Source: Candidatus Poribacteria bacterium
Lineage (GTDB): Bacteria; Poribacteria; WGA-4E; WGA-3G
NCBI GenBank assembly: GCA_012267415.1
Contig: JAAXGN010000108.1
Coordinates: 157,805-221,804, forward strand
DNA: 64,000 nt
Direction: 5' to 3'
The notes below the pieces were generated by a model. That model saw only the letters and a program-made list of their open reading frames with translations, was not told the DNA's origin and ran no database searches. The translations under genes were made by a program, and so were the position numbers. Positions 35,034-37,761 of this stretch are shown here, piece by piece (position 1 is the first letter of the stretch; every line of letters starts with the position of its first letter).

Positions 35034-35984
35034 TTATCGTTCAAAAAGTTTTGTCTGTTTGTCGTCGACGGTGTTGCGGTATTTGCCAACATTCTTGCCT
35101 TTTAATTTACGTTCTTTAAATGTTGTCTGCACATCACGTAAAGCGAGTTCTTCATGAATTTTTGGCATTTCATTTCGTGCTTTTTCCAATCTGTCACATG
35201 TCATTTCCATATATGCTTCGCTTCTGTCAATACCGATATATTTATGTCCTAATAGTTTTGCAGCAACAGCAGTTGTACCGCTCCCAAGGTAAGGATCTAA
35301 CACAATACCCGGTGTATCTGTTCCTAATATTGAAATAATCACACGTGCAGGTAACCATAAGGGAAACGGTGCAGGATGTGGATTCTTTCTTCCGTTTTCT
35401 GGTACGCCGCGCCATATAGATGTCAACTTAGCATCACAGGATTGCAATTCTTTACCGATTAGATGATCACCAATGGGTTTATACAACCAATAAATACGTT
35501 CCTCCTCTACCTGCCAAAACCGCCATCCTCGTATGTTTCCAGCTATCATCCTGTCCCAAATGATTTCCTGTTTTACCGTCCATACTGTTTTGCGCAGCCA
35601 ATCCATAGGATGATACATGTTGCCTTTTTCCCATCGTATTTTGTGATTATAGAAAAACGAGCCTCCTGGTGCGGTTATCCGATAAATTTCATTTAGCACA
35701 TCTACTTGATTTTGTTGGTAGTCAGGTTCAGGCATCGCATCTTTGTAGACATCATACACTACATTTTTTACAAGCCATCCTTTATGCTTTTCTTGTTTGT
35801 TATAGGGTGGCGAGGTGATGCCGACATTGACAACATCATCATCTATCTTACTAAGGACGTTGAGGGTGTCCCCTTCAATGAGTTTCCCATCTCCAAGCGT
35901 GTCAGCAGTAATTTGTATATTCTCCAGTAGATTGTCTTTAAGAAGATGTTGGTCAGCGATATTCATGCCAGATACCTTATCCAA
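35034..35984 (-). CDS. DNA methyltransferase of the beta-class N4/N6 family (SPPY motif), M2 of the R-M operon.
   Basis: VGITSPPYNKQ (motif IV) and DPYLGSGTTAVAAKLLGHKYIGIDRSEAY (motif I / AdoMet binding). The N-terminus is paralogous to M1 (MNIADQHLLKDNLLENIQITADTLGDGKLI). Confidence 0.85.
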   Translation of the reverse strand: MDKVSGMNIADQHLLKDNLLENIQITADTLGDGKLIEGDTLNVLSKIDDDVVNVGITSPPYNKQEKHKGWLVKNVVYDVYKDAMPEPDYQQNQVDVLNEIYRITAPGGSFFYNHKIRWEKGNMYHPMDWLRKTVWTVKQEIIWDRMIAGNIRGWRFWQVEEERIYWLYKPIGDHLIGKELQSCDAKLTSIWRGVPENGRKNPHPAPFPLWLPARVIISILGTDTPGIVLDPYLGSGTTAVAAKLLGHKYIGIDRSEAYMEMTCDRLEKARNEMPKIHEELALRDVQTTFKERKLKGKNVGKYRNTVDDKQTKLFER

Positions 35985-36594
35985 TGATAAATTCTGGAGA
36001 GGGATTTACTAACGACAATGGTATTCTCCACCAAACCTGCCAACTCATTGTCGGATGCAATGTGAATATCACGTTGTGAGAATTGATTTGTTTCCAACTG
36101 GATCTGCTTACATTTTCCCATCCAGCAGGATCGAGTTGACGAAGATAAGACTGGTCTACATATACTATCTGGTAAATATGATGTCTGCCAGTATCATCAT
36201 CTACTTTACGGTAAGGTATGGCGAGAAAATCCGCTCTATCTGTGTTTAGATATTCTGTCATATCCTCAAAATTGCCGTTAAAACGTCCTAACCTATGTCC
36301 TGACAAGACTAAATGGGGAGATATGTGATCGCCAGATTTGATCTGTTTTATCTCGCCAGATTTGATCTGTAATGGGTATACTTCGCCATTCACCCGAACG
36401 CGAATATCTGCTTGGTCATCGTGTCCGCCTTCTTGCCAAGCGGCGTGATGTCCAGCAGTGCTATCTGCTTGAATTGATTTAAATACAAGTTCTTCTAATT
36501 CCCAACCAGAGCAACGTCCTCCGTCAAATAGGTCGTGATATTTTTCCAAGTATTGCCGTAATGTCTGTTCCATTCTTGCTGTTAATCGGTACAT
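35977..36594 (-). CDS. Putative restriction endonuclease, a small ORF between two methyltransferases.
   Basis: 205 aa with no recognisable family. A possible PD-(D/E)xK-like segment is ADIRVRVNGEVYPLQIKSGE. It overlaps M1 by 13 nt and M2 by 8 nt (translational coupling). Confidence 0.45.
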   Translation of the reverse strand: MYRLTARMEQTLRQYLEKYHDLFDGGRCSGWELEELVFKSIQADSTAGHHAAWQEGGHDDQADIRVRVNGEVYPLQIKSGEIKQIKSGDHISPHLVLSGHRLGRFNGNFEDMTEYLNTDRADFLAIPYRKVDDDTGRHHIYQIVYVDQSYLRQLDPAGWENVSRSSWKQINSHNVIFTLHPTMSWQVWWRIPLSLVNPSPEFIIG

Positions 36595-37634
36595 TTTTCA
36601 TTCCATTCTTCAACTATGTATTCAAAAAGTCTTAACGTTATCTGATCTCTACTTTCATATTCTAACCACTTTGTAGCAAAATCGACAAATTCGGGGTTGA
36701 TCTCTATACCCAAATATTCTAATCCCAATGCTTGTGCCACGACACATTCCGACCCTGAACCGGCAAACGGAACAAGCACCTTTCCATTTGTCCCATTGAT
36801 ACGAGAGAGTATAAGTCTTTTTGTCAATTCCATCGGTTTTTGGGTTGGATGTTTCAAAATATTATGTTCTCGGTGTTCAGATAATTCACCTGGTGGATAG
36901 ATCTGATCTTCACACGTTCTACAAACGAACCACCTTTCAGCACGACCAGCCCCCCCTGCTAATGCTGGAATTTTGATTACATCTCTCGGCAAAGCACCGT
37001 TTTTATGGGCATTGTAGGTTGTTATTTTGCCTGGTGAACCGTAGCGTGAAGGTGTATCTTTTCGTTCTTTTCCTGCAGCATTTTTTAGGAAGTTTTCGGT
37101 ATAAGGTTCTCTGATCTGATCTACTTCCAAATTTGTGCGTGGCATATTCGGTTTCCAGAGACATAATATCGTCTCATGCGATCTTTGCCAGAATTTTAGT
37201 GACGGTACGGTTTTGTTAGTATAATGCCAGACCAGCCAACGTTGTTCATGAATCGGGAAACAGACAGATATTCTTGCGATGATTTCGGGGAATCCGTATA
37301 GGTAAAGTAAGCCGTCATCTGTGAGAAGGTGAAGACAGTCTTTTATCCACGATTCTGACCATTGGACATAATCGTCCATCGGCATGACTTCTGCATCATT
37401 CCCGAAATCTTTGCCGATATTGTAAGGTGGATCAGCAATAATCACATCGTATTGCTTCTCAGATTTGATGAGTTCTGGTAGTATTTTTGTTGTATCTGCG
37501 GCAATAATAGTGTTGATGCATGTGTCTTCCTTCATTTTTTGTTTAACCAGTTTCCCTTCTCCCAGTGTGTCGATGGTGATCTGTTTATTTTCTAATTGAC
37601 TGTCATTAAGAAGACGTTGCTCAGCGATATTCAT
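36582..37634 (-). CDS. DNA methyltransferase of the beta-class N4/N6 family (DPPY motif), M1 of the R-M operon.
   Basis: IIADPPYNIG and PFAGSGSECVVAQALGLEYLGIEINPEFV. N-terminus is MNIAEQRLLNDSQLENKQITIDTLGEGKLV. Confidence 0.85.
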   Translation of the reverse strand: MNIAEQRLLNDSQLENKQITIDTLGEGKLVKQKMKEDTCINTIIAADTTKILPELIKSEKQYDVIIADPPYNIGKDFGNDAEVMPMDDYVQWSESWIKDCLHLLTDDGLLYLYGFPEIIARISVCFPIHEQRWLVWHYTNKTVPSLKFWQRSHETILCLWKPNMPRTNLEVDQIREPYTENFLKNAAGKERKDTPSRYGSPGKITTYNAHKNGALPRDVIKIPALAGGAGRAERWFVCRTCEDQIYPPGELSEHREHNILKHPTQKPMELTKRLILSRINGTNGKVLVPFAGSGSECVVAQALGLEYLGIEINPEFVDFATKWLEYESRDQITLRLFEYIVEEWNEKCTD

Positions 37635-37761
37635 GATTTCATATACCTTGAAGTTAACAACGTTCTTGATTAACTGTAAGATACATTGGGTATAAATAGT
37701 ATATCAGAATGGCATCAAGAATTCAATATTGAATAAAGAAAATGAGAGAAGATAAGATACG

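What the first reader, a model, noticed from the sequence alone, without database searches (positions are those of the whole stretch)
35034..37634. M-R-M restriction-modification operon with two paralogous beta-class methyltransferases flanking a novel small endonuclease
Three minus-strand genes overlap by 13 nt and 8 nt. M1 (350 aa) carries DPPY and M2 (316 aa) carries SPPY. Both have the circularly permuted beta-class layout, with motif IV ahead of the AdoMet-binding motif. They share a clearly homologous N-terminus, MNIAEQRLLNDSQLENKQITIDTLGEGKL against MNIADQHLLKDNLLENIQITADTLGDGKL, so they are duplicated paralogs. Between them lies a 205-aa ORF with no recognisable family and at most a weak PD-(D/E)xK-like segment. 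The two-methyltransferase arrangement is typical of Type IIS or asymmetric-site systems in which each strand needs its own methylase, for example one m6A and one m4C. The endonuclease candidate is probably a new or highly divergent REase. The module sits between unrelated housekeeping glycosidase genes, consistent with an inserted defence island.
Basis: partly seen in the sequence, partly recalled or inferred. Interest (0 to 1): 0.6.

Follow-up and report, generated by a model that had tools for sequence, protein, structure and literature searches.

The report
Restriction system plus orphaned second methylase
The three genes are real, but they are not one three-part system: they are a complete two-gene restriction-modification pair (an adenine methylase plus an uncatalogued small restriction nuclease) followed by a leftover cytosine methylase from a second system whose own nuclease gene has been deleted. 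Both systems are shared among marine sponge symbionts from many bacterial phyla.

Summary
The three minus-strand genes exist as described. M1 (350 aa, DPPY) and M2 (SPPY) are beta-class N6/N4 DNA methyltransferases. The 205-aa middle ORF (R) matches no Pfam, NCBIfam, PADLOC, PHROG or PDB sequence.

R is very probably a restriction endonuclease:
- E34/E35, D63 and Q76-x-K78 are near-invariant.
- In 64 of 67 loci with an intact R, an M1 orthologue lies directly upstream.

The strand-specific two-methylase (Type IIS) reading is not supported. M1-R occurs without M2 in most loci. M2 has its own partner, a 222-225-aa PvuII-like nuclease 'X' that abuts or overlaps its start. Related genomes carry X-M2-M1-R or M1-R-X-M2. 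One keeps only an X remnant, and the window has lost X completely, leaving 10 nt between R and M2.

The shared N-terminus is a 94-nt copy of the M2 5' end fused in frame to M1, a rearrangement scar. The 8-nt R/M2 overlap comes from a TTG-extended ORF.

CATATG is absent from the window (12.7 expected), which makes it a tentative target site. This is an ordinary kind of system, with an uncatalogued nuclease family and a striking restriction to sponge holobionts.

The parts
36582..37634 (-). M1: beta-class DNA methyltransferase with a DPPY motif, probably N6-adenine. It is the cognate methylase of R. Residues 34-350 are the conserved core.
   Evidence: PF01555 E 1.5e-33. Best PDB sequence matches are beta-class methyltransferases: 9c3u/8urk ('Methyltransferase') at about 5e-22, MboIIA at 3e-15, and CcrM and RsrI. 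An orthologue lies directly upstream of R in 64 of 67 intact-R loci.
37536..37634 (-). N-terminal extension of M1 (codons 1-33). It is a relic copy of the first ~30 codons of an M2 gene plus the former 5'UTR of M1, fused in frame. The ancestral M1 start is the ATG at 37535.
   Evidence: 94-nt direct repeat with the M2 5' end, 78% identity. In 13 of 15 Poribacteria loci M1 starts at 'MKxDxFxNTII' with in-frame stops upstream. Only the window, L012 and P0363 carry the extension.
37698..37726 (-). Promoter-like site (TTGAAT-17-TATACT, with TG) upstream of M1. Candidate operon promoter.
   Evidence: Consensus scan. The number of such sites is no greater than in shuffled sequence, so this is only a candidate.
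35977..36594 (-). R: 205-aa candidate Type II restriction endonuclease with a PD-(D/E)xK fold. It overlaps the M1 stop by 13 nt.
36361..36495 (-). Predicted catalytic core of R: E34/E35 in helix 30-43, D63 at the start of strand 64-68, and Q76-I-K78 in strand 71-87.
   Evidence: These residues are at least 90% conserved in a 45-sequence alignment. Secondary structure comes from the model.
36329..36370 (-). 18-nt exact repeat with 24-nt spacing inside R, giving 'QIKSGEIKQIKSG'. It falls within the 8-13-column insertion, just after the catalytic strand, that makes the Poribacteria R proteins (204-205 aa) longer than most others (about 196 aa).
   Evidence: Repeat family D4. The insertion is visible in alignment A1.
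35967..35976 (-). 10-nt R-M2 junction, the place where the nuclease gene X of the second system has been deleted.
   Evidence: L031 and L089 have a full X between R and M2. L013 keeps about 219 nt with an X remnant (aa 153-204). The window has 10 nt. tblastn with X finds nothing in the window at E<=1.
35034..35966 (-). M2: 310-aa beta-class methyltransferase with an SPPY motif, probably N4-cytosine. It is intact but orphaned, the surviving half of an X-M2 system.
   Evidence: PF01555 E 3.4e-27. PDB 8s9m/8s9n rotifer N4CMT, E 2e-39 (PMC10406627). Orthologues start at MNI.... X abuts or overlaps M2 in 13 of the fetched loci (11 after removing duplicate loci).

Best explanation
The locus is a composite of two independent Type II restriction-modification modules, one complete and one half-decayed.

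Module 1, complete: M1 plus R.
- M1 (DPPY, probably m6A) methylates a short site, probably palindromic, in the host DNA.
- R is a single-domain PD-(D/E)xK nuclease that cuts the same site when it is unmethylated.
- The 13-nt overlap couples R translation to M1.

Module 2, a remnant: M2.
- M2 (SPPY, probably m4C) is the methylase of an X-M2 system. Its PvuII-like nuclease gene X has been deleted here.
- M2 therefore now acts as a solitary methylase, probably co-transcribed with M1-R.

Shown:
- the gene content
- the predicted nuclease fold and conserved catalytic motif of R
- the strict M1-R linkage
- the X-M2 linkage
- the loss of X in the window
- the origin of the M1 N-terminal extension as a fused copy of the M2 5' end

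Inferred:
- the bases methylated
- that R is active
- that M2 does not serve R
- the target site. CATATG is a tentative candidate for M1-R.
For: R is a nuclease:
- AF2 model pLDDT 90.8.
- Near-invariant E34/E35, D63 and Q76-x-K78 sit on the canonical helix-strand-strand-strand core.

M1-R is a unit:
- An M1 orthologue lies immediately upstream of R in 64 of 67 intact-R loci, and the loci come from at least ten phyla.
- Many loci have no second methylase within the 4-6 kb flanks fetched on each side.

M2 belongs to X:
- X-M2 occurs alone in L095/L096 with a 4-nt overlap.
- X abuts or overlaps M2 in L001, L014, L028, L031, L089 and L090; in L017 and L092 a truncated X lies upstream of M2.
- R and X are unrelated in sequence (hhalign probability 0.2%).

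Decay series for X:
- X is full length in L089/L031, a remnant in L013, and absent in the window.
- M2 also occurs entirely alone in L094.

Dependence of R on M1:
- In L028 and L090 M1 is gone. R is frameshifted in L028 and reduced to aa 128-205 in L090, while X-M2 is intact.

Origin of the N-terminal extension.

Target-site lead:
- CATATG is observed 0 times against 12.7 expected in the window.
- It is observed 2 times against 53 expected in Poribacteria loci, and 60 against 121 in other phyla.
- It has the lowest observed/expected ratio among the twelve most depleted hexamers in both groups.
Against: - No biochemical or methylome data exist. Nuclease activity, the methylated bases and the site are all inferred.
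- The two modules are adjacent in three different gene orders in Poribacteria, Dehalococcoidia and one further genome (L097: M1-X-X'-M2). That is more often than independent systems might be expected to be, so some functional coupling is not excluded, for example related or overlapping sites.
- The argument that 'R breaks when M1 is lost' rests on two loci.
- The CATATG signal has no non-carrier control. It is absent in one Poribacteria lineage (L011: 2 observed, 2.3 expected) and in the AT-rich Rickettsiales-like loci. Poribacteria also strongly avoid CTAG, GGCC, TCGA and CTCGAG, so several systems may be acting.
Confidence: 0.72

Rival explanations
1. M1, R and M2 form one three-gene system for an asymmetric (Type IIS-like) site. 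M1 puts m6A on one strand and M2 puts m4C on the other, as in MboII.
For: - The pairing of an m6A-type and an m4C-type beta-class methylase matches the MboII precedent. MboIIA is among the M1 PDB hits.
- The three genes are tightly packed on one strand, with no terminator-like site between them.
- M1-like and M2-like genes recur together in several phyla and gene orders.
Against: - R is paired with M1 alone in most loci.
- M2 has its own nuclease partner X, and occurs with X alone or entirely alone.
- R is broken where only M2 remains (L028, L090).
- R is a 205-aa single-domain protein with no separate cleavage domain.
- The window differs from M1-R-X-M2 relatives only by deletion of X.
Confidence: 0.1
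2. The modules are separate in origin but functionally coupled. M1 and M2 modify the same or overlapping sites, so either methylase protects against both R and X. That would explain why the modules travel together and why either nuclease can be lost.
For: - The four genes are repeatedly adjacent in different orders: X-M2-M1-R, M1-R-X-M2 and M1-X-X'-M2.
- 5' ends have been exchanged between the methylase genes. An M2 head is fused to M1 in the window, and an M1 head lies upstream of X in L014, L017, L092, L090 and L028.
Against: - Most M1-R loci outside Poribacteria and Dehalococcoidia have no M2 within the flanks fetched.
- In the two loci that have M2 but not M1, R is not intact.
- The adjacency within Poribacteria may reflect one ancestral composite that was inherited vertically and then decayed.
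Confidence: 0.13
3. R is not an active restriction enzyme. Either it is a decaying or domesticated nuclease-fold protein, or it has another role linked to the methylase, and M1 and M2 are both effectively solitary methylases.
For: - No family annotation and no biochemical evidence exist.
- The third catalytic position is Q rather than E or D.
- Some loci carry broken R copies (L083, L085, L086, L091).
Against: - R is full length, with every near-invariant residue present.
- The family is strongly conserved across phyla, at 45-92% identity, and keeps a conserved overlap with M1.
- From my own knowledge, not checked here: QxK variants are active in known enzymes, and HinP1I uses D...QxK.
Confidence: 0.05

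Closest known systems
ThaI and other small Type IIP PD-(D/E)xK restriction endonucleases (PDB 3ndh; also NaeI, BglI, DpnI, MspI, HinP1I)
   Same: - Similar size.
- Single catalytic domain.
- Adjacent cognate methylase.
   Different: - Only 9% sequence identity.
- No sequence or profile match to any PDB chain or to any Pfam, NCBIfam, PADLOC or PHROG model.
- QxK in place of ExK.
- The recognition site is unknown and need not resemble CGCG.
MboII-type Type IIS systems with an m6A and an m4C beta-class methylase (M1.MboII / M2.MboII)
   Same: One DPPY and one SPPY beta-class methylase lie in one gene cluster with a nuclease. MboIIA is a PDB hit for M1.
   Different: - Here the two methylases belong to separable modules (M1-R and X-M2).
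- The nuclease is 205 aa and single-domain. From my own knowledge, R.MboII is about twice that size.
- M2 is dispensable for R in most genomes.
PvuII restriction-modification system (R.PvuII plus the m4C beta-class M.PvuII)
   Different: - X is 222-225 aa, with an extra N-terminal helical region.
- X shares about 10% identity with PvuII.
- X is absent from the window.
- The specificity of X-M2 is unknown.
Bdelloid rotifer N4CMT (PDB 8s9m/8s9n)
   Same: It is the best PDB sequence match of M2 (E 2e-39 over 239 residues). Both carry the SPPY motif. N4CMT is a horizontally acquired bacterial-type N4-cytosine methyltransferase (PMC8885841, PMC10406627).
   Different: - N4CMT is eukaryotic and, in the full-length protein, is fused to a chromodomain.
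- M2 is a plain bacterial enzyme with a 27-aa N-terminal peptide found only in the Poribacteria copies.
NdeI-type CATATG systems
   Same: This is a lead only. CATATG has the lowest observed/expected ratio among the most depleted hexamers in carrier loci. CAT(6mA)TG methylation exists in bacteria (bioRxiv 10.1101/2025.10.01.679924), which is compatible with an m6A M1.
   Different: No sequence comparison with NdeI or M.NdeI was possible here, and REBASE was not available. The depletion lacks a non-carrier control and is not uniform.

Membership tests
Beta-class N6/N4 DNA amino-methyltransferases (Pfam PF01555) | Score above the Pfam gathering threshold for the whole protein | tested here: met
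   M1 scores 117.1 bits and M2 96.3 bits against a cutoff of 26.7.
Beta-class N6/N4 DNA amino-methyltransferases (Pfam PF01555) | Permuted motif order: catalytic (D/S)PPY (motif IV) N-terminal to the AdoMet-binding FxGxG (motif I), with both intact | tested here: met
   M1 has IIADPPY ... VPFAGSGSE. M2 has ITSPPY ... DPYLGSGTT.
Beta-class N6/N4 DNA amino-methyltransferases (Pfam PF01555) | Base modified (m6A for M1, m4C for M2) | not testable with these tools
   This is inferred from DPPY versus SPPY, and from M2's best PDB match to an N4-cytosine methyltransferase at E 2e-39.
PD-(D/E)xK nuclease superfamily (for R) | alpha-beta-beta-beta core fold shared with solved members | tested here: met
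   [not shown]
PD-(D/E)xK nuclease superfamily (for R) | Conserved acidic and lysine catalytic residues on the core (E ... D ... (D/E/Q)xK) | tested here: met
   E34/E35, D63, Q76 and K78 are at least 90% conserved in 45 homologues and lie on helix 30-43 and strands 64-68 and 71-87. The third acidic position is Q.
PD-(D/E)xK nuclease superfamily (for R) | Metal-dependent DNA cleavage | not testable with these tools
   No biochemical data.
Type II restriction-modification pair (M1-R) | The nuclease gene is consistently linked to one methylase gene across unrelated genomes | tested here: met
   64 of 67 intact-R loci have a full M1 orthologue immediately upstream, often overlapping. Of the three exceptions, one is a contig end, one is a split M1 hit and one carries only a weak partial M1 match.
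Type II restriction-modification pair (M1-R) | Same-site cleavage and protective methylation | not testable with these tools
   There is only indirect support. R is degraded in the two loci where M1 is deleted (L028, L090). CATATG avoidance is a further lead.
Type IIS two-methylase system (MboII-like M-R-M) | Both methylases are required partners of the nuclease and so co-occur with it | tested here: not met
   M2 is absent from most M1-R loci. M2 also occurs with X alone (L095/L096) or entirely alone (L094).
Type IIS two-methylase system (MboII-like M-R-M) | The nuclease has separate recognition and cleavage domains | tested here: not met
   The 205-aa model is a single compact PD-(D/E)xK domain.
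Type IIS two-methylase system (MboII-like M-R-M) | Asymmetric recognition sequence with strand-specific marks | not testable with these tools
   This needs methylome data.
ThaI family | Detectable sequence homology to ThaI | tested here: not met
   [not shown]

The most novel reading that the evidence does not exclude
M1-R, and separately X-M2, may be holobiont-wide restriction-modification 'barcodes'. On this reading the same two small modules have spread horizontally through sponge and other marine-invertebrate symbionts of at least ten bacterial phyla, while being almost absent elsewhere among 185,000 species genomes. The community would then share methylation marks (possibly m6A at CATATG), which would ease DNA exchange among co-resident symbionts while excluding outside DNA and phage. 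The modules would also recombine with each other by capturing each other's promoter and 5' coding ends, producing chimeric methylase N-termini like the one in the window.
Probability: 0.3. Interest if true: 0.6.

Novelty: new member of a known kind. Interest (0 to 1): 0.4.

Why it matters
In mechanism this is an ordinary Type II restriction-modification locus. Its value is threefold.

1. It defines two restriction-endonuclease families (R with about 310 members and X with about 557) that have no match in any of the family libraries searched here. Both could yield new specificities.
2. It shows that a tidy 'M-R-M operon' can be a composite of one live system and the orphaned methylase of another. 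That is a caution for automated defence-system calls.
3. Both modules are concentrated in sponge-associated bacteria of many phyla. This gives a concrete, testable case for the known 'unity in defense' pattern of sponge microbiomes (PMC5649159).

Tried and rejected
- R against phages gave no match. R against plasmids gave one weak hit, an unannotated stretch of a Spiroplasma plasmid, which was uninformative.
- hhalign of R against X showed no relationship. This rejects the idea that X is a diverged copy of R.
- The idea that R and X are two subunits of one heterodimeric enzyme (BbvCI/Bpu10I-like) was rejected, because each occurs with its own methylase in the absence of the other.
- I looked for flanking repeats and mobility genes around the module in the window. 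There is nothing convincing and no GC shift. The flanking genes have no counterpart in any other locus.
- The metagenome-contig scan added only two loci.
- ATGCAT was considered as a target because M1's best NCBIfam hit is PRK11524, the model that (from my own knowledge) covers E. coli YhdJ, whose site I recall as ATGCAT. It is only mildly depleted, at a ratio of 0.68-0.75.
- The literature search for CATATG methylases gave a motif report but no sequence link.
- One search counts some R genes as 'broken' only because the BLAST alignment included the stop codon, so I cite only the intact-R count.
Full report
**Observation**

The three minus-strand ORFs exist as described:
- M1 at 36582-37634 (350 aa, DPPY)
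- a 205-aa ORF, R, at 35977-36594
- M2 at 35034-35984 (316 aa from a TTG, SPPY)

Both outer proteins are PF01555 N6_N4_Mtase (E 1.5e-33 and 3.4e-27). Motif IV lies ahead of motif I, which is the beta-class layout. PADLOC calls both Type II methyltransferases. R has no hit in Pfam, NCBIfam, PADLOC, PHROGs or PDB sequences.

The M1/R overlap of 13 nt is real and is found again in other genomes. The 8-nt R/M2 overlap is not real. Every M2 orthologue begins at 'MNI...', which is the ATG at 35966, so M2 is 310 aa and starts 10 nt after the R stop.

**What R is**

R belongs to a well-conserved family of 196-205-aa proteins. It has 310 homologues, and none carries a functional name or a Pfam domain; the few names given are 'hypothetical protein'.

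In a 45-sequence alignment, E34/E35, H58-D59-D60, D63 and Q76-x-K78 are each at least 90% conserved. An AlphaFold2 model built on that alignment is confident (pLDDT 90.8, pTM 0.86). It places E34/E35 on a helix, D63 at the start of a strand, and Q76-I-K78 on the next strand. That is the canonical PD-(D/E)xK core.

R is therefore a PD-(D/E)xK restriction-endonuclease candidate from a family that has no model in any library searched here.

**Comparative genomics of M1-R**

Ninety-three related loci were collected, from gene look-ups by exact protein sequence, a scan of GTDB species genomes and a metagenome scan. tblastn with the M1 core, R and M2 shows a full-length M1 orthologue immediately upstream of R in 64 of 67 loci where R is intact. 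Of the three exceptions, one is a contig end, one is a split M1 hit and one carries only a weak partial M1 match.

Most of these loci have no second methylase within the 4-6 kb flanks fetched on each side (for example L002-L010). M1-R is therefore a self-sufficient two-gene module.

**M2 belongs to a different module**

M2's family is much larger than R's (5065 hits at E<1e-10, with the top 120 at least 73% identical). It occurs in other contexts:
- alone, in L094
- directly after a 224-225-aa ORF 'X', overlapping it by 4 nt, in L095/L096
- as M1like-X-X'-M2, in L097

tblastn with X finds it next to M2 in most M2-bearing loci:
- X-M2-M1-R in L001/L021 and L014, and with a truncated X in L017 and L092
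- M1-R-X-M2 in L031 and L089
- X-M2 followed by a broken R in L028 and L090
- only a 52-residue X remnant between R and M2 in L013

X is thus the likely nuclease partner of the m4C-type M2, in an arrangement analogous to PvuII.

The window contains no trace of X. Aligning the R-M2 junction with L013 shows that the ~219 nt carrying the X remnant in L013 correspond to just 10 nt in the window.

**Dependence of R on M1**

In the two loci that have M2 but have lost M1, R is not intact. It has a frameshift in L028, and only residues 128-205 remain in L090. X-M2 is intact in both.

This is what one expects if M1 is the only methylase that protects against R. It rests on two cases.

**The shared N-terminus**

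In 13 of 15 Poribacteria loci, M1 starts at 'MKxDxFxNTII...' with in-frame stop codons upstream. Only the window and L012 carry the extension. A third example is P0363, from the same 90% identity cluster.

The peptide is native to M2, since the Poribacteria M2 copies examined carry it. The junction 'KQ(N/K)M' in the extended M1 proteins corresponds to the untranslated 'EQNM' just upstream of the M1 start in other loci.

So an in-frame deletion in an M2-M1-R ancestor fused the first ~30 codons of M2 to M1. The extension is 73% identical between the window and L012, against 88% for the M1 core, which suggests relaxed constraint.

The mirror-image scar also exists. The first 33 codons of M1, followed by a stop, lie upstream of X in L014, L017, L092, L090 and L028.

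The two modules have evidently been rearranged against each other repeatedly. Apart from the repeat, M1 and M2 share only about 29% identity. They are family members, not recent duplicates.

**Mechanism proposed**

- M1 (DPPY; related to beta-class methyltransferases, including the adenine enzymes MboIIA, CcrM and RsrI) methylates its site.
- R is translated from the overlapping reading frame and cleaves unmethylated copies of that site.
- M2 (SPPY; E 2e-39 to the rotifer N4-cytosine methyltransferase; PMC10406627, PMC8885841) methylates the site formerly guarded by X, and now acts as a solitary methylase.
- M2 is probably co-transcribed with M1-R from a promoter-like site at 37698-37726. No terminator-like site lies between the genes.

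The gene content, the predicted fold and the linkages come from the analyses above. The methylated bases, the activity of R and the independence of M2 from R are inferred.

**Target-site lead**

Maximal-order Markov expectations were computed over the window and about 0.9 Mb of carrier loci. CATATG comes out as the most depleted hexamer:

| Sequence set | CATATG observed | CATATG expected |
|---|---|---|
| Window | 0 | 12.7 |
| 22 Poribacteria sequences | 2 | 53 |
| 61 loci of other phyla | 60 | 121 |

In the other phyla this is the lowest ratio among the twelve most depleted hexamers, and 52 of 61 loci fall below expectation. CAT(6mA)TG methylation is known in bacteria (bioRxiv 10.1101/2025.10.01.679924).

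There are several caveats:
- There is no non-carrier control.
- One Poribacteria lineage (L011) and the AT-rich Rickettsiales-like loci show no depletion.
- Poribacteria also strongly avoid CTAG, GGCC, TCGA and CTCGAG.

I treat CATATG as a hypothesis with a likelihood of roughly one in three.

**Context and distribution**

The flanking genes are a GH3 glycosidase and a weakly GH5-like protein. The module shows no GC shift and no flanking repeats or mobility genes. None of the window's flanking proteins occurs next to the module in any other locus, so its position differs between genomes, as expected for a mobile module.

The window is most likely from Candidatus Poribacteria.

Of 102 R relatives among 185,579 species genomes, the 80 listed are almost all MAGs of sponge symbionts, with a few from other marine-invertebrate hosts. 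They include:
- Poribacteria, Chloroflexota, Acidobacteriota and Actinomycetota
- Alpha- and Gammaproteobacteria and Bacteroidota
- Spirochaetota, Verrucomicrobiota, Bdellovibrionota, Thermodesulfobacteriota and Binatia
- a tardigrade symbiont and Rickettsiales-like MAGs

This fits the reported enrichment of restriction-modification systems in sponge symbionts (PMC5649159, found). Whether it means more than frequent horizontal transfer within a dense community is untested.

**Verdict**

This is a restriction-modification locus with an uncatalogued PD-(D/E)xK nuclease. It is one complete M1-R pair plus the orphaned methylase of a second, PvuII-like system. It is not a two-methylase Type IIS operon, and the shared N-terminus is a recombination scar.

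In kind it is ordinary, a new member of a known kind. What is noteworthy is the two unannotated nuclease families and their habitat-restricted spread across phyla.

Noticed in passing
L012-L091: The R/M1 module is found almost only in MAGs of marine sponge symbionts, with a few from other marine-invertebrate hosts. It spans at least ten phyla at 45-92% protein identity. One hit is a 4.7-kb contig binned as a Nitrososphaerales archaeon (L018). Its R is 85% identical to the window's R, within the 73-92% range of the Poribacteria copies, so it is probably mis-binned.
   Followed up: partly
window 1-64000; Poribacteria loci: Several short palindromes are strongly avoided in this genome and in its relatives. 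Window counts, observed/expected: CATATG 0/12.7, CTAG 17/132, GGCC 17/59, TCGA 56/160. In Poribacteria loci CTCGAG is 1/13.4. This points to a history of several restriction systems. Which motif belongs to which system is unresolved.
   Followed up: partly
L001:3397-4062, L095:3327-4004, L097:2653-4001: There is a second unannotated nuclease family, 'X' (222-225 aa, 557 homologues). It has a PvuII-like predicted fold and matches phrog_3210. It is always next to M2-like m4C methylases, and is tandemly duplicated in L097 (80% identical copies).
   Followed up: yes
window 36329-36370 (inside R): An exact 18-nt repeat with 24-nt spacing duplicates the codons for 'IKSG' just after the catalytic QIK, giving 'QIKSGEIKQIKSG'. 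It falls within the 8-13-column insertion that makes the Poribacteria R proteins (204-205 aa) longer than most others (about 196 aa). In the model it lies in a long beta-hairpin (strands 71-87 and 90-98).
   Followed up: partly
window 36852-36929 (M1 residues ~236-261): All M1 orthologues inspected carry a conserved 'RWF-x-C-x2-C ... PP ... H-R-x-H ... LKHPTQKP' insertion just before motif I. It is a possible zinc-binding element in the target-recognition region.
   Followed up: no
window 35034-35966 (M2): M2's best PDB sequence match is the horizontally acquired N4-cytosine methyltransferase of bdelloid rotifers (PDB 8s9m, E 2e-39). The published searches reported bacterial relatives at under about 40% identity (PMC10406627). 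The very large M2 family in sponge symbionts may be of interest for tracing the origin of that enzyme.
   Followed up: no
L014, L017, L092, L090, L028: A relic of the first 33 codons of M1, ending in a stop, lies upstream of X and overlaps its start in L014, L017, L092 and L090. It mirrors the M2-head-on-M1 fusion in the window. The two modules appear to swap promoter and 5' ends when they rearrange.
   Followed up: partly
L077:5001-6281: In a Porisulfidus MAG, R is followed by three further partial R-like segments (matching aa ~95-196 at 35-39% identity). This looks like tandem duplication of the C-terminal half.
   Followed up: no
L008:1805-3466 and L007:1-506: Other defence genes sit near the module in some genomes. 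L008-L010 have a DNA C5 methylase with Vsr, and a TIR-domain protein. L007 has a Type I/IIG-like methylase-specificity fusion and an HNH protein.
   Followed up: no
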